Position numbers and translations under genes: made by a program
Part shown: piece by piece, positions 1 through 9,293 of the stretch
Layout of the letters: every line of letters begins with the position of its first letter
Position numbering within the stretch: the stretch's first letter is position 1
NCBI GenBank assembly: GCA_024686195.1
Contig: JAIBDO010000001.1
Span: forward strand, 1-61,522
Length of the DNA stretch: 61,522 bases
DNA from: Gammaproteobacteria bacterium
Lineage (GTDB): Bacteria; Pseudomonadota; Gammaproteobacteria; GCA-001735895
Direction: 5' to 3'
The notes under the pieces: model-generated
Told to the model about the DNA's origin: nothing
Seen by the model: only the letters and a program-made list of their open reading frames with translations
Database searches by the model: none

Positions 1-504
1 ACTGTCTGTGGCGATTCGGGTATGCGCATCCACCAGGCCAGGCCCGCCACCCCAGGCTTCCAGCGTCAAACCGCCCCAGAACTTGAAACGGCCATCCACC
101 TTGAAAGCCTGTCTGCCATAAATCGGCATGAAACGGATGCCCTTGTCGCGCATCCAGTGCAGGGTATCGCGCGAGGACATCACAAGGCGTTCACAGAGAT
201 CGGGATCAGTCCGATACGACGTCACCCGGAACATATCGTCGTAAAACTGATCCGTGGTGTAACTGCCGAAATCGGTAATGGCGATTTGCTCTTCCGGTAA
301 ATCGGGGCAGAGTGCACGTATGTCGTCCACACCCTCGTAGGCAAAACGAATGGCACCGGCGGTGAAGCGGCTATTGCCGCCATTTTCACTTTGTGGAGCG
401 CGCTCCAGCATCAACACGCTGGCAGCTTTTTCCTGGGCCGCGTGTGCAGCGCAAAAAGCCGCGTTACCGGCACCTACAATAATGACATCTGGGTTATCGC
501 TCAT
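1..504 (-). CDS. FAD-dependent oxidoreductase (fumarate reductase/TcuA-like flavoprotein), 5' part only; the gene continues past the left window edge
   Basis: Absent from the ORF track because no stop lies inside the window. My reverse-strand translation from ATG 504-502 reads MSDNPDVIIVGAGNAAFCAAHAAQEKAASVLMLERAPQSENGGNSRFTAG... It has a GxGxxA dinucleotide-binding motif followed by GGNS, as in FAD_binding_2-type flavoproteins. The start is 4 nt after the stop of the upstream ThDP-enzyme gene. Confidence 0.7.
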   Translation of the reverse strand, partial: MSDNPDVIIVGAGNAAFCAAHAAQEKAASVLMLERAPQSENGGNSRFTAGAIRFAYEGVDDIRALCPDLPEEQIAITDFGSYTTDQFYDDMFRVTSYRTDPDLCERLVMSSRDTLHWMRDKGIRFMPIYGRQAFKVDGRFKFWGGLTLEAWGGGPGLVDAHTRIATDS

Positions 505-507
505 AAT

Positions 508-2181
508 CTATTTCTTGAAAAGGTCCTTGCGCAAAGCACTCAAAGCCTCGGTGTCGACCTTGACATGAATGACCGCGGGTTTGCCGGCTGCCAGTGCTGA
601 CTTCAGGGCGGCCGCGGTTTCTCCAGCCCGGCTTACGCGGTACCCGCGCGCGCCACAGAGTTCAGCGAAGTCGGCGTAGTCGGGGCTGATGATATCAGCA
701 CCCAGCAAGCGGCCACCGAAAAACTCTTTCTGGTAGGCTTTTTCAGCACCCCAGGCGCCATTGTCGATAACGACGACAATAACTGGTAGATCATAGGTAA
801 CCGCGGTGGATAGTTCAGCCATGGTAAAACCAAAACCGCCATCGCCCATGACGGCGATAACGGGGCGGTTTCTGGCCGCAGCCTGTGCGCCGATAGCGGC
901 CGCATAAGCAAATCCGACGAGACCGAAATCGAGTGGCGTGATCAGCCCCGGTGCCTGGTAGTGAGCGAGTCTGTCTGCGGCCTGCAAACAGGCATTACCG
1001 GTATCGATGGTGACGATGGCATCTTGCGGCATAGCTTCGCGGATCTCGCCTAATACTCGCTTCGGCAGCAATGGCATTGATTCATCGAGGGCCTCCTGAC
1101 GTCGTTGGCGGGTCAGCTCGGCCTTGTCGAGCTGAAATTGTTCGAGCCATTCCTGCCAGTTCATCGTTGGCGGGGAAAGGATTATGGCGTCGGTTATGGC
1201 CTCGGTGCTGGCTCTTGCATCTGCCTGGATACCCAGTTCTACCGGAAAATAACGGCCGATGGCGCGGGCTTCAACATCGATCTGAACGATGCGGGCGTTC
1301 GCTGAAATGTACTCGTTGCTGTGAAAGGTGGAGTTGAAGGCGAGCCGATTGCCGATGGCCAGTATCAGATCCGCATTTGCGGTCAATCCACTGGCAACCG
1401 AATTGCCTCTTGGCCCTGCCTGCCCTGCAAACAACGGGTGATCATGCGGCATCACATCGGCGTGACCGGTCGAGGCGACGACCGGAATCTGCAGGGCTTG
1501 CGCCAGCGTTTGCAGCGCCTTACTGCCTTTGGACCATTTCAATCCGCCACCGGCAAAGATAAGCGGAGCGCGACTTTGCGCCAGCAGCTGAAGTATCTGC
1601 AGGATCTGTTGTTGCGTTGCTGCGGCGCCTTCGACAGGCGAGGGTGGCGCAATTGCGTCCATCGCAAAACGATCTGCAAACAAATCGCGGGGCACATGCA
1701 GGACGACGGGTCCCTTGCGTCCGGAATTGGCCAGGCGAACGGCATCATTGAACATTTCCGGCAAGCGCTCGACCTGCGGGACCACGATTGACTGTTTGCT
1801 GATCGACTTGAACAGGCTGACCTGATCAAATTCCTGAAAGGTGTCGCGACCCTGATGCTCGCGCGTGGTCATGCCGGCGATTGCGATCAGCGGCGAATAG
1901 GCGAGATGAGCTTCAACCACGCCTGTGGTCAGGTTGGCTACTCCAGGACCGGATTGCGCGCCGAGCACAACACCGGTCGTGCCGGTAACCCGGGCATAAG
2001 CATCGGCCATGTGCGCTGCGGCGCGTTCGTCCCGGGCACCGATGTAATTCACCGCATCATCCTGGTAAATGGCATCGTATAGTTCGAGCATCGAACCACC
2101 CAGCAAACCAAACACGGTATTGATACCATTGGCTTTCAAGCTGTGCAGAATTGCCTCACCACCGTTTATTAGCTGTTTCAT
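508..2181 (-). CDS. Thiamine-diphosphate-dependent enzyme (acetolactate synthase large subunit-like family)
   Basis: 557-aa ORF. The N-terminal pyrimidine-binding domain reads GARDERAAAHMADAYARVTG...GPGVANL. The C-terminal ThDP/Mg motif reads GDGGFGFTMAELSTAV...VIDNGAWG. Substrate cannot be assigned from sequence. Confidence 0.9.
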   Translation of the reverse strand: MKQLINGGEAILHSLKANGINTVFGLLGGSMLELYDAIYQDDAVNYIGARDERAAAHMADAYARVTGTTGVVLGAQSGPGVANLTTGVVEAHLAYSPLIAIAGMTTREHQGRDTFQEFDQVSLFKSISKQSIVVPQVERLPEMFNDAVRLANSGRKGPVVLHVPRDLFADRFAMDAIAPPSPVEGAAATQQQILQILQLLAQSRAPLIFAGGGLKWSKGSKALQTLAQALQIPVVASTGHADVMPHDHPLFAGQAGPRGNSVASGLTANADLILAIGNRLAFNSTFHSNEYISANARIVQIDVEARAIGRYFPVELGIQADARASTEAITDAIILSPPTMNWQEWLEQFQLDKAELTRQRRQEALDESMPLLPKRVLGEIREAMPQDAIVTIDTGNACLQAADRLAHYQAPGLITPLDFGLVGFAYAAAIGAQAAARNRPVIAVMGDGGFGFTMAELSTAVTYDLPVIVVVIDNGAWGAEKAYQKEFFGGRLLGADIISPDYADFAELCGARGYRVSRAGETAAALKSALAAGKPAVIHVKVDTEALSALRKDLFKK

Positions 2182-2196
2182 TTATTACTTGCTGTC

Positions 2197-4146
2197 CTAA
2201 AGATTCATTGCGGTTTGCATGCCTTCGAAAATGGCTTCTTCCGCGGTGCGTGGTACCACGCAATCGCCTATCGCCAGCGGATCTATGCCCGCTGCGCGCA
2301 ATTCGATTTCAAGCTGTCCGTCTGCCTGCTGACCCATGGCGAGTACCAGCGTGTCGATAGTGTCGAATATAATCGCTTCGTCAGTCAGTGTATTCTGAAA
2401 ATATACGCAATCCCCGTCGCTGCCGTAAAGCCGTGCATGGGTAACCACCTCGACCCCCAGTTTGTAAAGTCGCCCAAGATAATAATTGCGCGTGTAGATT
2501 TGCAACGCCTCGCCGGCCAGTGCCGCATTTACCACCAGTTTTACCCGGCAACCGTCGCTGGCCAGGCGTTCGGCGAGACCGATCCCGGTCCAGTCGCCGC
2601 GCCAGTCGGCCACCACCACGTTGGTACCGATTGAGCAACGCTTAAGCAAAACATCTTCGTAGTCGATGGTGCGCTCTGGATCGAAGCTGCCCGCGGCGGG
2701 GAAGTAAGCTTGCGCGCCGGTGGCAAGAACGATGCTATCTGCCTGCAGGGTCTGCAGCATATCGCTATCAACAGCGCAGTTGGTAACCAGCTGTATGTCA
2801 GCTGCTTCGAGCTCATGCATGAGGTTGGTTACGAGTCCACCGAATTCTTCACGACCGGGAAGCAGCTGTGCCAGCAACGCCTGACCACCGGGTTGGGGTG
2901 CCTTATCGTAAAGCGTTACGGCGTGTCCTCTGCTGGCGGCAACGACCGCACATTTCAGGCCGGCGGGGCCGGCACCGACCACCACAATCCTGCGGCTTGA
3001 TGCGGCTGTTTGCAGACCGTTGAACTTCAGCTCGCGGCCCGACTGCGGATTCTGAATGCAGGAAATTGGCAGGCCTTTATGCGCCCGCCCGATGCAGGAC
3101 TGATTACACCCGATACAGGCACGAATATCGTCATAGCGGCCAGCCTGGGCTTTGTTCGGCATCTCAGGGTCACAGATCATGGCGCGGGTCATGCCGCAGA
3201 GATCCGCCTGACCACGTGAAATCATCTGTTCGGCGACCTGTGGCTGGTTGATGCGTCCGGTGACGATGACCGGAATATCAAGTTTCCCTCGTATCTGTTC
3301 CGAAATGGGGCCGAGATAACCAGCGCTGAAGCCCATTGACGGCGAAATATGCACCGATGCACCCAGGGTAGCGGAGGAACCGGCGACCAGGCTGACATAG
3401 TCGAGTTGCGCCTGCAGCGCCAGGCATATGTCGGTTACCAGGGGTTCTTCCACGCCTTCCGGTTCGTAATCGTTTGCCGACAGGCGCAGACCCAGGGTAA
3501 GCCCAGGGGCCTGCTGGTGAATCGCGGTGATGACATCGCGAGTGAATTTCAGCCGTGAGTCAAAGTCGCCGCCGTAGTCATCGTTGCGTTGATTGACCGC
3601 AGGGCTCAGAAACTGCGCGGGCAGATAGCCATGGCTGCCGACAATCTCGACACCATCGAAGCCCGCTTGTTGCAGGTTTTTCGCGCAGTTTGCATAACCG
3701 TCGATGATTGACTCGATCAACGCTATGTCCATCGCTTTCGGCATGATATGAAAGCGTTCGTTGGGCAGTGCTGATGGTGCATAAGCGATTGCCCCAAAAC
3801 CGTCGGCGGTCGACATAACTTCTCGGCCGGGATGGAACAACTGGGCGAAGATGCGGCAGTCGTGACGATGACAGGCCTCCGCCAGCTGACGGTATGCCTG
3901 TATCGACGAATCGTCAAAAAATGACAGCAGCTTGCTGGAAAAGCCGGCGCTCGGGTGCACGGCAATAATTTCGGAGATGATCAGGCCGGCACCGCCGCGG
4001 GCGCGGGATTCGTGATAGGCAATCAGCTCCGGACCCGGTTCGCGGTCCGCCAGGTAGGTGTGATGTCCAGTCGAAACAATGCGGTTCTTCAGCGTTGTAC
4101 TGCCCAGCTTTATTTGAGAAAACAGCTGAGGAAAATGATTGCTCAT
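2197..4146 (-). CDS. FMN/4Fe-4S/FAD(NAD) flavoprotein of the trimethylamine dehydrogenase / 2,4-dienoyl-CoA reductase / N-methylproline demethylase family
   Basis: 649-aa ORF. OYE-type barrel motif HGYLPAQFLSPAVNQRNDDYGG. Cys cluster RYDDIRACIGCNQSCIGRAHKGLPISCIQNP. Second dinucleotide fold VVVGAGPAGLKCA. The ATG overlaps the stop of the MttB-family gene (ATGA). Confidence 0.9.
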   Translation of the reverse strand: MSNHFPQLFSQIKLGSTTLKNRIVSTGHHTYLADREPGPELIAYHESRARGGAGLIISEIIAVHPSAGFSSKLLSFFDDSSIQAYRQLAEACHRHDCRIFAQLFHPGREVMSTADGFGAIAYAPSALPNERFHIMPKAMDIALIESIIDGYANCAKNLQQAGFDGVEIVGSHGYLPAQFLSPAVNQRNDDYGGDFDSRLKFTRDVITAIHQQAPGLTLGLRLSANDYEPEGVEEPLVTDICLALQAQLDYVSLVAGSSATLGASVHISPSMGFSAGYLGPISEQIRGKLDIPVIVTGRINQPQVAEQMISRGQADLCGMTRAMICDPEMPNKAQAGRYDDIRACIGCNQSCIGRAHKGLPISCIQNPQSGRELKFNGLQTAASSRRIVVVGAGPAGLKCAVVAASRGHAVTLYDKAPQPGGQALLAQLLPGREEFGGLVTNLMHELEAADIQLVTNCAVDSDMLQTLQADSIVLATGAQAYFPAAGSFDPERTIDYEDVLLKRCSIGTNVVVADWRGDWTGIGLAERLASDGCRVKLVVNAALAGEALQIYTRNYYLGRLYKLGVEVVTHARLYGSDGDCVYFQNTLTDEAIIFDTIDTLVLAMGQQADGQLEIELRAAGIDPLAIGDCVVPRTAEEAIFEGMQTAMNL

Positions 4147-5693
4147 GCTGGCTGCATCAGCTTTTCATCGAGCAGGATCCGGTAGCGATCGCGGATCCAG
4201 CGATCCTGTTCAGGGGTGATCAACTCGGGATAGTGGGCTTTCAGAACGTCCCTGGCTGTCATTTTGGCGCGCTGGTATATATCAAGTGAGCCAGCCTGTT
4301 TCCAGTCATCGGGTGATTGACGATTGGCGACCTGTGGGTAGAGGTAATCGCTTTTCATGCGCTGCAGGGTTTGTGGCGCGCCGAGGTAGTGTCCTTCACC
4401 GTTAACCACGTCCTCGATCACGTCCAGTGCCAGCGTCTCTTCGCTGACTTCAATTCCGCGCACACCGCGCAATACTGAACCGATCATGTCGTTGTCGATG
4501 ACATAGCTCTCGAACGATGCTCCGAGCAGGCTGGCCTGCAGGCCGCAACCCTGGGTAATGATATTGGCGCCGGCATGGGCCGCCAGCGTCAAGCCGTGGC
4601 ATTTTTCGTATCCGTGCTGGGCATCGGGTGTCTTGGCATCGGTCATCCCTGCCATTGAGCTGGTGACGAAGCCGTAGTAGCGACCCATCTGCGCCGTAGC
4701 CGCCATCAGTACTCCCTGTTCGCCGCTGCCACCCGACATCGACCCGGTGCGCAGATCCGAGACCAGCGCCTTGGGCGCAAAAATCGCCTTCACCTGCGGG
4801 TCGATCAGGTAACAGAACACCATTCCGGCCAGCGATTCTGCAACTGATTGCACGACCGAGCCGGCGAGGGTGGCGGGGCTGGTAGCCCCGGCCTGTCCTG
4901 CGGAGATCAATTGCACCGGGTAGCCCAGACGGACACCGGCCTCTAATACCTTGCAGGATTCTTCGGCAAAGCGCATCGGTGGCACGACATGGCAACACAG
5001 CAGCGTACAAAACGGTTTTTTACGAAACTCGCCCGCGCCACCGGCAAGCAGATCGAAGTACTCGTTTATTTTTTCCACATGTTCGGCTTCAAAGAAGCTC
5101 ATGCCGATGTGTTTACTGGTGCCGGCGGTAGACACATAGGCCGTGTTCAAATCCAGTGACCAGGCATCCGGGCAATCACGAGCGACCAGTGATCGATTGA
5201 AAAAGTGGATGTTATCCAGCGAGTCGACCAGTCGAGCCGCATCGTAGAGATCTTGTAATAAAGCGTCCCGGTATAGTCCTGTTTCCAGATCGACCATATT
5301 GGGTGAGGCACCACCGGTGCCAACATGAACGCGATCCCCGGATACCTGCAGATCCCGGCCCTCGGCGCGACCGTGTAAGGTGAATGACTTGCAGGTGTTT
5401 GCAATGACGTCGTCCACCAGTGCACGCGGGAAAAGAAGCCGCCCCTGCTCAGTCAGGCGTCCACCTTTGGCGCTCACCAGCTCGATCATTGAGGGAATTG
5501 CCTGGCTCAGCCCGACTCTTTCCAGCAGGTCGAGTACGGCAGTGTGAATGCGCTCCTCTTCTATTATGGACAGGGGCTTGTAGTGGCCGCCCTCAACGCC
5601 TGGCCAAACCGGCGGCTGAGCCATCTCGGCCTGATCCAGTGACTCTTCGAGCCGCCGTTGGCGGCGAGGGTTTTTTCGACTTCGCTTTTCCAT
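4143..5693 (-). CDS. Trimethylamine methyltransferase (MttB) superfamily protein, non-pyrrolysine type
   Basis: Uninterrupted ORF of the length and pattern expected for the MttB family (Arg-rich N-terminus, ...YKPLSIIEEERIHTAVLDLLERVGL..., GTGGASPNMVDLETG). The track starts it at TTG 5750; I prefer the first ATG at 5693 (MEKRSRKNPRR...). The start is uncertain. Confidence 0.85.
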   Translation of the reverse strand: MEKRSRKNPRRQRRLEESLDQAEMAQPPVWPGVEGGHYKPLSIIEEERIHTAVLDLLERVGLSQAIPSMIELVSAKGGRLTEQGRLLFPRALVDDVIANTCKSFTLHGRAEGRDLQVSGDRVHVGTGGASPNMVDLETGLYRDALLQDLYDAARLVDSLDNIHFFNRSLVARDCPDAWSLDLNTAYVSTAGTSKHIGMSFFEAEHVEKINEYFDLLAGGAGEFRKKPFCTLLCCHVVPPMRFAEESCKVLEAGVRLGYPVQLISAGQAGATSPATLAGSVVQSVAESLAGMVFCYLIDPQVKAIFAPKALVSDLRTGSMSGGSGEQGVLMAATAQMGRYYGFVTSSMAGMTDAKTPDAQHGYEKCHGLTLAAHAGANIITQGCGLQASLLGASFESYVIDNDMIGSVLRGVRGIEVSEETLALDVIEDVVNGEGHYLGAPQTLQRMKSDYLYPQVANRQSPDDWKQAGSLDIYQRAKMTARDVLKAHYPELITPEQDRWIRDRYRILLDEKLMQPA

Positions 5694-5797
5694 AGCCGCA
5701 ACAAATGAACCTGAAAGCTCAAATATATTCACTTTACAGGCTTGCGACAAACGAGAATAATCAGCCCGATACCTGAATACAATTCATCTATAGGCGA

Positions 5798-6688
5798 ATG
5801 CGACAGATACGTTCAGTACAGGCGTTAAAAACTTTTGAAGCGGCTGCGAGACACCTGAGTTTCAAGTATGCGGCGCAGGAACTGTGCGTTACTGCCACCG
5901 CGATCAGTCACCAGATCAAAACTCTCGAGGCTCAGCTGGGTTTCGTGCTGTTCAAACGCAAGGTGCGACGGATTGAGCTGACGGACCAGGGGTATGAATT
6001 GTTTAATACCCTGCGCAAAGCTTTCGACGACATAGACGACACCATCAACCAGATTGAAACGCGCAGTAAACGTGATGTCGTGACCCTGGGCCTCGGACCA
6101 ATTATCGGAGCACGTTGGTTGGCACCTCGGCTCGGAGACCTCTGGGAAAGCCATCCCGACATTGACTTGCGCCTGCACCACATCACCTTTCCGCTACAGA
6201 AAAGTGCCGATTTGTTCGACCTCGCGATCGCCTGGGGAGATGGTCACTGGCCACAAATGGAAGTCACGCCGTTCATCGATATCAAGTTGACCCCGGTGAT
6301 GTCACCGCAACTGCCACAACCTGGCCAGGCGGCGGATCTGTTGCAGCAGGTGTTAATTCACGAGCGTAACCGTAAGGGATGGCAACAGTGGTTTGCGCAA
6401 GCCGGAGTCGAATACGATGGAACCGCCGGGACCACCATCGATGATGCCAATCTGGTGCTGCAGGCCACGCTCAATGCACAGGGTGTTTCGCTTGGAATTT
6501 TGCCATTTGTTAGCGAAGATCTGCGCAATGGCAAGTTAGTTCGACCGTTTGACCTTGCCGTCGACCCCGAGTTTTCCTACTACCTGATTTATCGCAAGAA
6601 GAGCCTTAACAAGCCCGCAGTTGAGGCGGTGAGGGACTGGTTGCTCTCCAATATTCAGCAATCGGAGCCGCCTGCACGGGCCCGGTGA
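5798..6688 (+). CDS. LysR-family transcriptional regulator (GcvA-like)
   Basis: 296 aa with an N-terminal wHTH (FKYAAQELCVTATAISHQIKTLE) and a LysR substrate-binding domain. Divergent from the MttB-family operon. Confidence 0.9.
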   Translation: MRQIRSVQALKTFEAAARHLSFKYAAQELCVTATAISHQIKTLEAQLGFVLFKRKVRRIELTDQGYELFNTLRKAFDDIDDTINQIETRSKRDVVTLGLGPIIGARWLAPRLGDLWESHPDIDLRLHHITFPLQKSADLFDLAIAWGDGHWPQMEVTPFIDIKLTPVMSPQLPQPGQAADLLQQVLIHERNRKGWQQWFAQAGVEYDGTAGTTIDDANLVLQATLNAQGVSLGILPFVSEDLRNGKLVRPFDLAVDPEFSYYLIYRKKSLNKPAVEAVRDWLLSNIQQSEPPARAR

Positions 6689-7167: not shown

Positions 7168-7908
7168 ATGCGGATTTTAAGATCTCTGGTGGCAACCGTG
7201 ACGTTACTGATTGCAGTGGGCGGACCTGCGCAGGCTCGCGATGTCTCGATGTTAACCGTCGAGTGGGCCCCCCATTATGGTTCAACTCTTCCTGAAAACG
7301 GACTAACGACGGCGTTGGTAAAAGCCGCCTTCAGGGCTGGTGGGCATTCTTCCCAGGTCGACTTTATACCCTGGGCGCGTGCGTTGAAGGAAGTCGAAGA
7401 AGGCAAGGCAGATGTTGTCATGGGGGCATACTATAACGAGGACAGGGCGCAGAAGTATTATTATAGTGATCGCATTTATTCGCTTGATCTGGGTTTGATC
7501 GCGCGCCCCGGGCTCGATGTTCTAAAGTATGAATCCCTGCGCGAATTGTCCGCCTACAAGATTGGTGTATCGCGCGGATTTGCTAACAGTGAAGAGTTTG
7601 ACGCCGCTGATTACCTGAATAAGGATGTGGCGACTTTCCCCAATCTGAATATTCGCAAACTGTTTCGTGGACGCATTGATATGGCAGTGATGAATTTCGA
7701 CCTGTTCAGGTACGAAGCCAAAAAGGAAGGCTTTTGTATCTCCAATGTTACCTTTATGGATCCGCCGCTGAGTACCGAGGGTCTCTACATGATGGCATCG
7801 CGTAATATTCGTGATGGTAAAAAGATCATTGAGGATTTTAACCGTGGCCTGTTGGCGATTCGTCAGAATGGTGAGTTTGACCGCATCGTCAATCGTTTCC
7901 GCAAATAG
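7168..7908 (+). CDS. Periplasmic substrate-binding protein, family 3 (orphan, no adjacent permease)
   Basis: 246 aa with a signal peptide (MRILRSLVATVTLLIAVGGPAQA) and an SBP_bac_3-like layout. A GAAAGGAAAA purine-rich stretch precedes the ATG. Confidence 0.8.
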   Translation: MRILRSLVATVTLLIAVGGPAQARDVSMLTVEWAPHYGSTLPENGLTTALVKAAFRAGGHSSQVDFIPWARALKEVEEGKADVVMGAYYNEDRAQKYYYSDRIYSLDLGLIARPGLDVLKYESLRELSAYKIGVSRGFANSEEFDAADYLNKDVATFPNLNIRKLFRGRIDMAVMNFDLFRYEAKKEGFCISNVTFMDPPLSTEGLYMMASRNIRDGKKIIEDFNRGLLAIRQNGEFDRIVNRFRK

Positions 7909-7943
7909 CATTTGAGTAACCATAAACGCTAGAGAGCAGCTTA

Positions 7944-8672
7944 ATGAGTAGTGTAAATATCCGATGGTATAGAACGATCCGCATGAAGGTGGTAACGGCA
8001 GTTATCGTCTCCTGTACGGTGGTTTTTGGCGGGCTTAGTGCCTTCAACACCGTGACCGAGCAGGATCAGCTGTCAGCCGACCTGCTTAAATTGACCCAGG
8101 TGACGTCGAAACGCTTGTCGAAACACTTGATCGGTCCGATGTGGGATCTGGACAGAGATCTGGTCGACTCGGCACTGGAAGCGGAGATGCTGGAAGAGAA
8201 TGTCGCGGCCATCGTAGTCTGGGATGAGGGTGGGAACATCGTTTTTTCTGCACGTGAGCGCAGTGCTGATGGAAGTCTGCTGGTGTCCAATGGCGCCATT
8301 GCGGGCGACCTGATCAAGGCCAGTGACGAAATCAGCAATGGCGAAAAATCGATCGGTGAAGTTTCAGTGTTTGTCTCCAAGCAACAGTTGAACCAGCAGC
8401 TCGCGGCTTCGACGTTCTCTAATCTGACAACACTGACTGCGTTGATCATTGTTATGGCTATTGTCATGACGATCGTTATGAATCAGGTTATCATCGGCCC
8501 CATCACCCGGCTGGCCAAACATGCCGACGATATCAGCCACGGTGACCTGAAACAGAACATCGTGCCAGAGTCGCATGACGAAATCGGACTTCTGGCGGAA
8601 GCCTTCCACCGCATGCAAAACAGCATGAGGGTGGCCTTTAAGCGACTTTATGCGAAGACGAAATCTGCATGA
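7944..8672 (+). CDS. Membrane sensor with a periplasmic Cache/PDC-like domain and a HAMP domain but no output domain
   Basis: 242 aa: TM1 (VVTAVIVSCTVVFGGLSAF), about 130 aa periplasmic, TM2 (LTTLTALIIVMAIVMTIVM), then HAMP (IIGPITRLAKHADDISHGDL...DEIGLLAEAFHRMQ). The protein ends about 20 aa after HAMP. Confidence 0.75.
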   Translation: MSSVNIRWYRTIRMKVVTAVIVSCTVVFGGLSAFNTVTEQDQLSADLLKLTQVTSKRLSKHLIGPMWDLDRDLVDSALEAEMLEENVAAIVVWDEGGNIVFSARERSADGSLLVSNGAIAGDLIKASDEISNGEKSIGEVSVFVSKQQLNQQLAASTFSNLTTLTALIIVMAIVMTIVMNQVIIGPITRLAKHADDISHGDLKQNIVPESHDEIGLLAEAFHRMQNSMRVAFKRLYAKTKSA

Positions 8673-8720
8673 TACGACTGAGAATTCGATCGTGACATTT
8701 ACGGATCACCCGGAGTCGAG

Positions 8721-9293
8721 ATGAGCGATTGGCTTGTTTACGACGATATCGTTGATCTTGTGCGCAGTCGGCATCATGACGGGTACAGCGGTCTGTTGAC
8801 CGGAGTCACCGAGCGCCAGCATTCGTTCCAGGTCGGTTTCGATAACGGCAATATCGTGTTGTTGTCCTATCGCATCAGGAAGGGCCTGGCAGCGTTGCAG
8901 CTGATCTCACAGATCGAACGCGCGAAAATCTCCGAGTATCCGGTTGCGGCTCCGGTAGAGCTATCAGGTGACGTGCCTGATACCAGCACCATTCTGTCGA
9001 GTTTAACCTCGAATACGCGCGACGACACGACCTCGATTACTGAAATCAGTGACGTCCCCAGTCCGCAGAGTATGAGTAACTCCGGGCAATCAAGCACGGT
9101 GGATGCGAAAATGAAAGCGATTATAGAAGCTGCTGCAATCCATCATTTTGGCCCCATCGGTGCAATGGTTTGTGCAGAACATCTGCATGAGTCGCGTGCA
9201 GATGTGCGTCAGCTTATGCTTGAAATCGTGAATGAGATTGGTGCTAGCGAAGCTGATTCCAGAGCATTTTTTGAATCGATATCCAACGCTTGA
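8721..9293 (+). CDS. Hypothetical protein (two small domains joined by a Ser/Thr-rich linker)
   Basis: 190-aa ORF, 48 nt after the HAMP gene, with no competing ORF. I recognise no family. The C-terminal segment IIEAAAIHHFGPIGAMVCAEHL looks like a conserved helical module. Confidence 0.55.
   Translation: MSDWLVYDDIVDLVRSRHHDGYSGLLTGVTERQHSFQVGFDNGNIVLLSYRIRKGLAALQLISQIERAKISEYPVAAPVELSGDVPDTSTILSSLTSNTRDDTTSITEISDVPSPQSMSNSGQSSTVDAKMKAIIEAAAIHHFGPIGAMVCAEHLHESRADVRQLMLEIVNEIGASEADSRAFFESISNA

What the first reader, a model, noticed from the sequence alone, without database searches (positions are those of the whole stretch)
1..5750. Non-Pyl MttB-family methyltransferase operon with no corrinoid protein, coupled to a TMADH-type flavoprotein, a ThDP enzyme and an FAD oxidoreductase
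Characterised non-pyrrolysine MttB homologs demethylate quaternary amines onto a cognate corrinoid protein. No B12-binding protein, MtbA-like second methyltransferase or reductive activase is encoded in this window.

Instead the gene overlaps (ATGA) a 649-aa FMN/4Fe-4S/FAD enzyme of the family containing trimethylamine dehydrogenase and N-methylproline demethylase. That is followed tightly by an acetolactate-synthase-like ThDP enzyme and an FAD oxidoreductase that starts 4 nt after its stop. A GcvA-like LysR gene is divergent.

This combination suggests sequential demethylation of a methylated amine followed by C-C bond chemistry on the carbon skeleton. It does not match a named pathway that I know.
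Basis: partly seen in the sequence, partly recalled or inferred. Interest (0 to 1): 0.6.

Follow-up and report, generated by a model that had tools for sequence, protein, structure and literature searches.

The report
Uncharacterised quaternary-amine breakdown operon
This is a real, conserved operon for breaking down a still-unidentified trimethylated nitrogen compound; its "missing" vitamin-B12 carrier protein is encoded elsewhere in the same genome, as is normal in aerobic marine bacteria, so only the later steps of the pathway are new.

Summary
On the minus strand lie a non-pyrrolysine MttB-family gene, a 649-aa FMN/4Fe-4S flavoprotein, a 557-aa ThDP enzyme and a TcuA-like flavoprotein cut off by the contig end. 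A GcvA-like LysR gene is divergent, and the gene junctions are as described.

The "no corrinoid protein" puzzle has an ordinary explanation:
- The genome carries one complete core elsewhere (contigs C209 and C205): MtgC corrinoid protein, DUF1638, MetF2, the MtgD pterin methyltransferase and a RamA-type activase.
- It also has eight MttB paralogs.
- This matches the shared-core model that Mausz et al. (PNAS 2025) showed for Ruegeria pomeroyi.

What remains uncharacterised is the conserved pairing of this MttB clade with a ThDP enzyme related to sulfoacetaldehyde acetyltransferase (Xsc) and a TcuA-family dehydrogenase. It occurs in two forms:
- with the FMN/4Fe-4S flavoprotein, as here;
- with two dimethylglycine-dehydrogenase-like enzymes plus an aminotransferase in its place, as on the R. 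pomeroyi DSS-3 megaplasmid.

The swap suggests that the flavoprotein removes the remaining nitrogen and that the ThDP and TcuA-like enzymes then degrade the carbon skeleton. The substrate is unknown; it is probably not glycine betaine, because all four betaine-binding residues of MtgB are replaced.

The scan had already noted the same operon on other DNA. I rate it a new variant of a known kind, of moderate interest.

The parts
1..504 (-). N-terminal 168 aa of a TcuA-family FAD dehydrogenase, the last gene of the operon, truncated by the contig end
   Evidence: - FAD_binding_2 and PRK08274 (TcuA), 157.8 bits for the fragment.
- 84% identical to the full-length L022 orthologue; no other piece is in the assembly.
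- Full-length orthologues (491-526 aa) score 564-585 against PRK08274 (cut-off 369) but 233-266 against TIGR02485 (cut-off 372.55).
- About 35% identical to Salmonella TcuA.
508..2181 (-). ThDP-dependent enzyme (557 aa), a distinct subfamily related to sulfoacetaldehyde acetyltransferase (Xsc)
   Evidence: - TPP_enzyme_N, M and C.
- The best NCBIfam matches are the Xsc models, at 410 and 392 bits, both below their cut-offs of 620 and 676.
- In the tree the operon clade has 89/97 support. Its sister is an LLM-monooxygenase-context clade, and Xsc comes next at 85/90.
- It shares the motifs 'NxxWGAEK' and 'GHxD' with Xsc only; the cofactor-activating Glu is kept as RDE.
- A true Xsc lies elsewhere in the genome, on contig C220, at 1064 bits.
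2197..4146 (-). FMN / 4Fe-4S / ADP(FAD)-domain flavoprotein dehydrogenase (649 aa) of the FadH / TMADH / N-methylproline-demethylase superfamily
   Evidence: - Oxidored_FMN plus Pyr_redox_2.
- PDB matches: FadH 294 bits, NCR 203, TMADH 190.
- The CxxCxxxC...C cluster motif, SHGYLPAQFL and the first GxGxxG are conserved.
- The second nucleotide loop is replaced by the conserved sequence ADWRxDWxGxG, which parallels TMADH's loss of NAD(P)H binding.
4143..5696 (-). Non-pyrrolysine MttB-superfamily methyltransferase (517 aa from the ATG at 5696; the ORF is open up to the TTG at 5750)
   Evidence: - PF06253, 376.7 bits.
- 29% identical to D. hafniense MtgB. The MtgB ligands Y97, R312, H348 and F356 are replaced by G, S, Q and L (PMC13080624).
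- It belongs to a superclade (99/99) separate from the MtgB superclade.
- 55% identical to the R. pomeroyi megaplasmid homologue.
5697..5797 (.). Divergent intergenic (promoter) region between the operon and its LysR regulator
   Evidence: Read directly. The LysR gene is divergent in nearly all orthologous loci. No operator was defined.
5798..6688 (+). GcvA-like LysR-family transcriptional regulator, divergent
   Evidence: HTH_1 plus LysR_substrate. GcvA subfamily scores 286.4 bits (cut-off 288) and the choline-sulfate regulator model 199. Orthologues are 45-85% identical and sit in the same position in related loci.

Best explanation
This is a LysR-controlled catabolic operon for an unidentified trimethylammonium compound. 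The substrate is a betaine-type osmolyte and is probably not glycine betaine.

**Step 1 (inferred by homology).** The MttB-family enzyme moves one N-methyl group onto the Co(I) form of a corrinoid protein. That protein is not in the operon. It is the single MtgC encoded elsewhere in the genome, and the genome's eight MttB paralogs share it. MtgD passes the methyl group to tetrahydrofolate, MetF2 oxidises it, and RamA with DUF1638 keeps the cobalt reduced.

**Step 2 (inferred from a module swap).** The FMN/4Fe-4S flavoprotein has no NAD(P)H loop, so it should pass electrons to ETF or a similar acceptor. It removes the remaining dimethylamino group in one of two ways:
- TMADH-like oxidative C-N cleavage, giving a carbonyl compound plus dimethylamine; or
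- StcD/DgcA-like N-demethylation.

**Step 3 (inferred).** The nitrogen-free carbonyl skeleton is degraded by the Xsc-related ThDP enzyme, either by decarboxylation of a 2-oxo acid or by Xsc-type cleavage of a beta-substituted carbonyl. A TcuA-family dehydrogenase then desaturates a carboxylate. In many relatives a betaine-aldehyde-dehydrogenase-like Aldh also takes part.
For: **Trans-acting core in the same genome**
- Contig C209 carries MtgC (B12-binding_2 plus B12-binding, with a DxHxxG motif), DUF1638, PF13769, MTHFR_C, MTHFR and Pterin_bind.
- The RACo/RamA gene lies on C205, which abuts C209: the two contigs share 33 aa with one mismatch.
- There are eight PF06253 matches on eight contigs.
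- MtgC is the only MtgC-type corrinoid protein in the assembly.

**Published precedent**
- In R. pomeroyi one MtgC/MtgD core serves several unlinked pfam06253 modules. Up to seven such ORFs per genome were proposed to handle other methylated compounds (PMC12478193).

**No corrinoid gene is hidden beyond the contig end**
- In the closest relative contig (94% identical ThDP enzyme) the operon ends after a 491-aa TcuA-like gene, with no corrinoid gene in the next 8 kb, up to that contig's end.
- tblastn with the genome's own MtgC found none in the 16 orthologous loci it covered. Pfam tables list none in three further loci.

**Operon conservation**
-.

**Module swap**
- On the R. pomeroyi DSS-3 megaplasmid and in G075 the order is MttB - class-III aminotransferase - two DMGDH-like enzymes - ThDP - TcuA-like.
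- Their MttB and ThDP proteins nest inside the clades of the flavoprotein-type operons.

**Flavoprotein features**
-.

**ThDP enzyme relation to Xsc**
-.

**Not a glycine betaine enzyme**
- All four MtgB ligands are replaced.
Against: - Nothing here is biochemical. The substrate is unknown, and no transporter is conserved next to the operon.
- The contextual clues disagree on the substrate class:
  - The ThDP enzyme's nearness to Xsc points to a beta-substituted aldehyde.
  - The variant aminotransferase is closest to D-phenylglycine aminotransferase, and the DMGDH-like partners act on N-methyl alpha-amino acids. Both point to an alpha-amino-acid betaine that yields a 2-oxo acid.
- No pta or ackA gene accompanies the ThDP gene, as would be expected if acetyl phosphate were formed.
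- Monophyly of the operon-linked MttBs is poorly resolved (47/97).
- The flavoprotein's best solved match is a C=C reductase (FadH), so an enoate-reductase role is not excluded.
- In R. pomeroyi DSS-3 the TcuA-like gene is frameshifted. That copy of the pathway may be impaired, or the TcuA-like enzyme may be dispensable.
Confidence: 0.65

Rival explanations
1. Chain-shortening scheme for an amino acid that carries a distal trimethylammonium group, for example N-epsilon-trimethyllysine.
- The alpha-amino end is deaminated first.
- The ThDP enzyme decarboxylates the resulting 2-oxo acid, as AruI does in the arginine transaminase pathway.
- The betaine-aldehyde-dehydrogenase-like Aldh makes a shorter omega-betaine.
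- Only then do MttB and the flavoprotein remove the methylated nitrogen.
For: - A BADH / aminobutyraldehyde-DH-like Aldh is present in 5 of 13 flavoprotein-type loci.
- The 5-guanidino-2-oxopentanoate decarboxylase model matches the ThDP enzyme at 281 bits.
- The variant aminotransferase is closest to an alpha-amino-acid transaminase, D-PhgAT, at 255 bits.
Against: - The ThDP enzyme groups with Xsc, not with decarboxylases of the AruI type.
- The TcuA-like protein keeps the TcuA-family active-site pattern and resembles L-aspartate oxidase only weakly, so it is a poor candidate for the alpha-deaminase.
- The Aldh gene is absent from the window's nearest relative and from both aminotransferase-type operons.
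Confidence: 0.12
2. The MttB homologue works without any corrinoid protein. It would either transfer methyl groups directly to tetrahydrofolate or another acceptor, or it would not be a methyltransferase at all. This is the novelty implied by the first reader.
For: - No corrinoid gene lies in the operon, in the 61.5-kb window or in any of the orthologous loci examined.
- The four substrate-binding residues known from MtgB are not conserved.
Against: - The same genome holds a complete MtgC/MtgD/RamA/DUF1638 set and eight MttB paralogs, none of them on the contig that carries mtgC.
- Unlinked MttB modules served by a single MtgC are the published norm (PMC12478193).
- Every MttB-superfamily member characterised so far uses a corrinoid protein (PMC8604678, PMC12155760, PMC13080624).
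Confidence: 0.07
3. The flavoprotein and the TcuA-like protein act as a redox pair on a C=C bond. This would be an enoate reductase plus desaturase, for instance on a crotonobetaine-type intermediate. The flavoprotein would then play no part in removing nitrogen.
For: - The best solved match of the flavoprotein is 2,4-dienoyl-CoA reductase.
- The His-Gly-Tyr motif typical of OYE ene-reductases is kept.
- The TcuA family makes or reduces C=C bonds next to carboxylates.
Against: - The flavoprotein lacks the NAD(P)H-binding loop that reductases of this family use.
- In the alternative architecture it is replaced by two N-demethylases plus an aminotransferase while the TcuA-like gene stays. That argues for a role in nitrogen removal.
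- Homologues about 50% identical sit beside proline and hydroxyproline catabolic genes, as expected for N-methyl-amino-acid demethylases.
Confidence: 0.1

Closest known systems
[quoted passage not shown] 2025, PMC12478193)
   Same: - A non-Pyl pfam06253 methyltransferase whose corrinoid protein (MtgC), methyl-THF methyltransferase (MtgD), MetF2, DUF1638 and RamA are encoded at another locus and shared by several paralogs.
- All of these parts are present in this genome.
   Different: - This MttB belongs to a different superclade from the MtgB-type enzymes and has none of the four MtgB glycine-betaine ligands.
- Its partners (FMN/4Fe-4S flavoprotein, Xsc-related ThDP enzyme, TcuA-like dehydrogenase) have no part in glycine betaine catabolism.
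Uncharacterised operon on the R. pomeroyi DSS-3 megaplasmid (SPO_RS21405-RS21380, roughly SPOA0308-SPOA0313)
   Same: - Orthologous MttB (55% identity), ThDP enzyme (59%), TcuA-like gene (78%) and a divergent LysR gene.
   Different: - A D-PhgAT/GSAM-like aminotransferase and two DMGDH-like flavoproteins of about 800 aa stand where the window has the FMN/4Fe-4S flavoprotein.
- The TcuA-like gene is frameshifted in DSS-3.
- No functional study was found. One gene, SPOA0310, is listed as more highly expressed late in a diatom co-culture (PMC9723723).
Sulfoacetaldehyde acetyltransferase Xsc (taurine / sulfonate catabolism)
   Same: - It is the nearest characterised ThDP family by HMM score and by tree.
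- The active-site-proximal motifs NxxWGAEK and GHxD are shared.
   Different: - The scores are far below the Xsc cut-offs: 392 against 676.
- RHE is changed to RDE.
- The genome has its own true Xsc with a class-III aminotransferase and a MocR/GntR-type regulator beside it.
- No pta gene is linked.
N-methyl-amine dehydrogenases and demethylases of the FMN/4Fe-4S family: TMADH; HpbA of Paracoccus (PMC3950512); StcD and DgcA (placed in this fold family from memory)
   Same: - The three-domain architecture and the 4Fe-4S motif are shared.
- The NAD(P)H loop is lost, as in TMADH.
- The position directly after a quaternary-amine demethylase is the same.
   Different: - The TMADH Cys30 and aromatic bowl are absent.
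- The best solved match is FadH.
- That HpbA and StcD belong to this fold family rests on my memory and was not tested here.
Tricarballylate dehydrogenase TcuA (Salmonella)
   Same: - It belongs to the same family and shows the same replacements of the fumarate-reductase catalytic residues (Tyr for Arg402, Thr/Phe for the His pair, Tyr for Arg545).
- Orthologues pass NCBIfam PRK08274.
   Different: - Identity is only about 35%.
- Orthologues fail TIGR02485.
- No TcuB or TcuC partner lies in any of the loci.

Membership tests
MttB superfamily (PF06253) | Full-length match to the family profile | tested here: met
   376.7 bits against a cut-off of 25; residues 28-520 cover profile positions 4-489 of 500.
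Pyrrolysine-containing trimethylamine methyltransferase MttB | In-frame UAG (pyrrolysine) at the catalytic position, and the equivalog score | tested here: not met
   The frame is open with no internal stop. Met aligns with the Pyl residue of M. barkeri MttB. TIGR02369 scores 330.5 against a cut-off of 525.
MtgB (glycine betaine:corrinoid methyltransferase) | Glycine-betaine ligands Y97, F356 (pi-cation) and R312, H348 (carboxylate), as defined in PMC13080624 | tested here: not met
   Aligned residues are G129, L390, S346 and Q382, from a pairwise phmmer alignment at 29% identity. The protein falls in a different superclade from D. hafniense MtgB.
MtcB / MtpB / MtyB / MthB (Eubacterium limosum quaternary-amine methyltransferases) | Phylogenetic grouping with a characterised member | not testable with these tools
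Aerobic MtgBCD-type system with a shared trans-encoded core (PMC12478193) | Genome encodes MtgC (B12-binding_2 plus B12-binding), MtgD (Pterin_bind), MetF2, DUF1638, RamA/RACo and several pfam06253 paralogs | tested here: met
   All are found on contigs C209 and C205, which abut. There are eight PF06253 matches.
Aerobic MtgBCD-type system with a shared trans-encoded core (PMC12478193) | This MttB actually methylates MtgC | not testable with these tools
   This needs an enzyme assay or genetics.
Trimethylamine dehydrogenase (TMADH) family in the narrow sense | 6-S-cysteinyl-FMN cysteine (Cys30) and the aromatic bowl (Tyr60, Trp264, Trp355) | tested here: not met
   The aligned positions hold His, Ile, a non-Trp residue, and Ala or His. 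The residue numbers are quoted from memory of the TMADH literature.
FMN/4Fe-4S/ADP-domain flavoprotein superfamily (FadH, TMADH, histamine dehydrogenase) | OYE-type FMN domain, the CxxCxxxC...C cluster motif, and a GxGxxG dinucleotide domain | tested here: met
   The second (NAD(P)H) loop is degenerate, as in TMADH.
Sulfoacetaldehyde acetyltransferase (Xsc) | Score above the curated equivalog or subfamily cut-off | tested here: not met
   TIGR03457 scores 391.6 against 676.4, and PRK07525 scores 410.2 against 620. A true Xsc at 1063.7 bits is on contig C220.
Sulfoacetaldehyde acetyltransferase (Xsc) | Phosphate-dependent release of sulfite and acetyl phosphate | not testable with these tools
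   Only relatedness is shown: a sister relation at 85/90 support and shared motifs. No pta gene is linked.
Tricarballylate dehydrogenase TcuA | Equivalog scores, and a TcuB Fe-S partner with a TcuC transporter | tested here: inconclusive
   Orthologues pass PRK08274 (564-585 against 369) but fail TIGR02485 (233-266 against 372.55). Identity to Salmonella TcuA, whose gene sits with tcuB, is about 35%. No tcuB-like gene appears in any operon locus.

The most novel reading that the evidence does not exclude
The conserved trio (this MttB clade, the Xsc-related ThDP enzyme and the TcuA-family dehydrogenase) may define a new catabolic pathway for a common but unassigned marine zwitterion. Candidates are a sulfonated or amino-acid-type betaine, such as N-methylated taurine or cysteate derivatives, homoserine betaine or beta-alanine betaine. 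In this reading the ThDP enzyme catalyses a reaction not yet described: an Xsc-like beta-elimination started by decarboxylation of a 3-substituted pyruvate, or the cleavage of a new beta-substituted aldehyde.
Probability: 0.3. Interest if true: 0.65.

Novelty: new variant of a known kind. Interest (0 to 1): 0.45.

Why it matters
Methylated nitrogen osmolytes are a major currency between phytoplankton and bacteria. Mausz et al. (2025) pointed out that the several MttB paralogs of marine bacteria probably handle other, unknown methylated compounds.

This operon is a concrete case. The methyltransferase is tied to a conserved and unusual set of downstream enzymes, so it can be used to identify one of those compounds and possibly a new ThDP reaction.

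An orthologous operon lies on the megaplasmid of Ruegeria pomeroyi DSS-3, which is genetically tractable. The flavoprotein-type operon is present in a record named Pelagibius sp. Alg239-R121. The question is therefore directly testable.

Tried and rejected
1. **Corrinoid gene just beyond the left edge.** The window starts at the contig end. No other contig overlaps it or holds the rest of the TcuA-like gene. The closest relative contig shows no corrinoid gene downstream.
2. **Orthologues within the genus.** The 45%-identical ThDP genes in 7 of 24 same-genus genomes are a different clade, found in an LLM-monooxygenase context. Only 1 of 400 sampled genomes of the phylum has a true orthologue.
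3. **TcuA-like protein as a cation-binding or amine-oxidising enzyme.** I rejected this. Its Tyr, Thr/Phe and Tyr replacements of the fumarate-reductase residues are shared with genuine Salmonella TcuA.
4. **A sulfonate link.** There are only hints:
   - the relation to Xsc;
   - a TauD-like gene in L037;
   - sulfopyruvate-decarboxylase-like genes beside L024;
   - SsuA/NMT1-type binding proteins near L038 and L066;
   - a Bradyrhizobium TcuA-like cluster with an SsuA-type importer.
   These are too inconsistent to rely on.
5. **Literature.** I found no paper on this gene combination, on SPOA0308-0312 function, or on bacterial trimethyltaurine catabolism. The supplements of PMC12478193 held as text do not list these genes. 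'BbmA', the best PDB match of the ThDP enzyme, could not be traced in the library.
7. **Phylogeny with MtcB, MtpB, MtyB and MthB.** I could not obtain these sequences with the tools on hand.

Full report
**1. The observation**

The window is contig C169 of a 2.84-Mb, 268-contig assembly that is 91% complete, and position 1 is the contig end.

| Coordinates | Strand | Product | Key evidence |
|---|---|---|---|
| 4143-5750 | - | MttB family | PF06253, 376.7 bits |
| 2197-4146 | - | 649-aa flavoprotein | Oxidored_FMN + Pyr_redox_2 |
| 508-2181 | - | 557-aa ThDP enzyme | TPP_enzyme_N, M and C |
| 1-504 | - | FAD_binding_2 protein, truncated | best model TcuA PRK08274 |
| 5798-6688 | + | LysR regulator | GcvA subfamily 286 bits, cut-off 288 |

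- The junctions are exact: an ATGA overlap, a 15-nt gap and a 3-nt gap.
- Homologs of MttB are about 517 aa, so the start is probably the ATG at 5696.
- The gene is non-Pyl. The frame is open, Met aligns with pyrrolysine, and the Pyl-MttB equivalog scores 330 against a cut-off of 525.
- No B12-binding, Pterin_bind or RACo match lies on this contig.

**2. The missing corrinoid protein**

The genome has eight PF06253 matches on eight contigs. It also has a complete core set:

- Contig C209 encodes, in order, a 240-aa corrinoid protein (B12-binding_2 + B12-binding, with a GDIHDIGKN motif), DUF1638, a PF13769 protein, MTHFR_C, MTHFR (MetF2), a Pterin_bind methyltransferase (MtgD) and the Fer2 start of an ORF that runs off the contig.
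- Contig C205 begins with the RACo linker, middle and C-terminal domains, that is a RamA-type activase. It then carries AraC-type regulators and the best-scoring MttB of the genome.
- The two ORF ends share 33 residues with one mismatch, so C209 and C205 are neighbours.
- The other B12-binding matches are a radical-SAM protein, a 599-aa protein with a C-terminal B12 domain, and a weak match (20 bits, below the cut-off) that falls in an IMP dehydrogenase gene. None is an MtgC-type protein.

This is the arrangement shown experimentally in Ruegeria pomeroyi. There one MtgC/MtgD core, with RamA and DUF1638, serves unlinked pfam06253 modules. Up to seven such ORFs per genome were suggested to act on other methylated compounds (PMC12478193).

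I addressed it with relatives:

- In a contig whose ThDP enzyme is 94% identical, the operon ends after a 491-aa TcuA-like gene, and nothing corrinoid-related follows within 8 kb, up to that contig's end.
- tblastn with the genome's own MtgC found none in 16 orthologous loci. Pfam tables list none in three further loci.

The corrinoid protein therefore acts in trans. This is ordinary for this kind of bacterium.

**3. The operon is conserved, in two forms**

*Form B*: LysR <> MttB - FMN/4Fe-4S flavoprotein - ThDP - TcuA-like, often with an Aldh.
- It occurs in the window and in L022, L039, L040, L061, L062, L065, L066 and L067.
- L024, L037 and L038 lack the TcuA-like gene.
- An Aldh that scores best against betaine-aldehyde or aminobutyraldehyde dehydrogenase models is present in L022, L037, L062, L065 and L067.

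*Form A*: LysR <> MttB - class-III aminotransferase - two ~800-aa DMGDH-like flavoproteins (DAO + GcvT domains) - ThDP - TcuA-like.
- It lies on the R. pomeroyi DSS-3 megaplasmid and in genome G075.
- In DSS-3 the TcuA-like gene is frameshifted.

L026 is a mixed form.

The form-A MttB and ThDP proteins nest inside a form-B subclade in both trees. Support for that subclade is 97/99 for ThDP and 80/100 for MttB. The two forms are therefore one pathway with exchangeable middle modules.

The operon is rare among species representatives. I found it in 1 of 400 sampled genomes of the phylum and in none of 24 from the same genus. It is common in metagenomes.

**4. The individual proteins**

*MttB*
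- It is 29% identical to D. hafniense MtgB.
- The four residues shown to bind glycine betaine (Y97, F356, R312, H348; PMC13080624) align with G, L, S and Q.
- In a tree of 23 sequences it falls in a well-supported superclade (99/99) that excludes D. hafniense MtgB and the genome's C205 paralog.
- I could not add MtcB, MtpB, MtyB or MthB.

*Flavoprotein*
- The best solved matches are FadH (294 bits), naphthoyl-CoA reductase (203) and TMADH (190).
- The 4Fe-4S motif and the first GxGxxG are conserved.
- The TMADH cysteinyl-FMN cysteine and aromatic bowl are absent.
- The second dinucleotide loop is replaced in all orthologues by ADWRxDWxGxG. This parallels TMADH, which uses ETF and not NAD(P)H.
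- Homologues about 50% identical lie on plasmids of Paracoccus aminophilus and Shinella, next to cupin genes. In Paracoccus aminophilus they also lie near proline and hydroxyproline catabolic genes. In that setting Paracoccus uses the flavin-dependent N-methylproline demethylase HpbA (PMC3950512). I recall that HpbA and StcD have this fold, but I did not test it.

*ThDP enzyme*
- The Xsc models are the best NCBIfam matches but fall well below their cut-offs.
- The operon clade is monophyletic (89/97). Its sister is an LLM-monooxygenase-context clade, and the two together are sister to Xsc (85/90), apart from ALS, Gcl, PoxB and Oxc.
- It shares 'NxxWGAEK' (after the GDG...N ThDP motif) and 'GHxD' with Xsc only. 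RHE is changed to RDE.
- The genome has a true Xsc beside a class-III aminotransferase and a MocR/GntR-type regulator.

*TcuA-like protein*
- Orthologues pass PRK08274 but fail TIGR02485.
- They are about 35% identical to Salmonella TcuA.
- They share TcuA's replacements of the fumarate-reductase catalytic residues.
- No tcuB gene is linked.

*Form-A aminotransferase*
- It is closest to D-phenylglycine aminotransferase (255 bits), then to GSA aminomutases.

**5. Mechanism**

*Shown*
- The parts, their conservation and the trans core.

*Inferred*
1. MttB demethylates a trimethylammonium compound onto Co(I)-MtgC. MtgD, MetF2 and RamA complete the cycle.
2. The flavoprotein occupies the place taken in form A by two N-demethylases plus a transaminase. 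It therefore most likely removes the dimethylamino group. It could do so in one TMADH-like step that gives a carbonyl compound and dimethylamine, or by N-demethylation. Electrons would go to ETF or a similar acceptor.
3. The carbonyl product is handled by the ThDP enzyme and the TcuA-family dehydrogenase, with an Aldh in many loci.

*Unresolved*
- The clues on substrate class conflict. The relation to Xsc favours a beta-substituted aldehyde or a 3-substituted pyruvate. The D-PhgAT-like transaminase and the partners that act on N-methyl alpha-amino acids favour an amino-acid betaine that gives a 2-oxo acid.
- No pta or ackA gene and no transporter are conserved.
- I therefore leave the substrate open and give the candidates as tests.

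**6. Comparison and novelty**

- The methyl-transfer part belongs to the MtgBCD-type system. Every genomic feature I could test is met.
- It is not MtgB, not Pyl-MttB, not Xsc and not an orthologue of TcuA.
- The downstream combination matches no described pathway in NCBIfam or in the searched literature.
- Earlier notes of this scan recorded the same operon on other DNA (e1-1213201, not followed up) and the form-A cluster (e1-2310138). The finding is therefore not unique to this window.

**7. Limits**

- The tools return no model coordinates, so I could not analyse the binding pocket.
- All functional statements rest on homology and gene context.

**Verdict**

The finding is real and conserved. 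The headline anomaly is explained, and what remains is an uncharacterised variant pathway. Interest 0.45.

Noticed in passing
L041 13671-15141 (R. pomeroyi DSS-3 megaplasmid NC_006569, about 338504-339974): The TcuA-like gene directly after the ThDP gene is split by a frameshift near residue 267/268, and it is absent from the plasmid gene table. It is intact in the related genome G075 (L060 13328-14794).
   Followed up: partly
Own genome, contigs C209 (end) and C205 (start); loci L002, L029, L030 and L006: The two contigs abut: the last ORF of C209 (Fer2 domain) and the first ORF of C205 (RACo domains) share 33 aa with one mismatch. Joined, they give one cluster: mtgC - DUF1638 - PF13769 - MTHFR_C - metF2 - mtgD - ramA, followed by AraC-type regulators and an MtgB-superclade MttB.
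   Followed up: yes
Same-genus genomes, loci L048-L050 (also L015-L021): A sister clade of the ThDP enzyme (about 45% identity) occurs in 7 of 24 same-genus genomes. In the loci examined it lies beside a luciferase-like monooxygenase, with a flavin reductase, an alpha/beta hydrolase, an Aldh or an SDR in one locus or another. This appears to be another uncharacterised cluster, also noted earlier in the scan (e1-4983635).
   Followed up: partly
L069 (Bradyrhizobium guangdongense plasmid NZ_CP030058, 101625-119061): A 61%-identical TcuA-like gene sits next to EtfAB, an SsuA/NrtA-type ABC importer, a CoA transferase, a CoA ester lyase and a YeiH-type exporter. This suggests that ETF is the electron acceptor of this TcuA subfamily and that its substrate is an imported acid.
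   Followed up: no
L063 and L064 (Shinella sp. HZN7 and Paracoccus aminophilus plasmids): Homologues of the FMN/4Fe-4S flavoprotein (about 50% identity) are each paired with a cupin-domain gene. In Paracoccus they lie beside proline racemase, hydroxyproline epimerase and aconitase-family genes. A cupin gene also follows the ThDP gene in L038.
   Followed up: no
window 7168-9293: Three consecutive plus-strand ORFs may be pieces of one sensor gene or a small sensory operon: SBP_bac_3 (246 aa), a HAMP-containing protein (242 aa) and an unassigned 190-aa ORF.
   Followed up: no
Own genome, contig C220 (L051 3472-8352): A canonical taurine module is present: a class-III aminotransferase, a MocR/GntR-type regulator and a true Xsc (1064 bits). 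A MetE-like (Meth_synt_2) gene lies next to it.
   Followed up: partly
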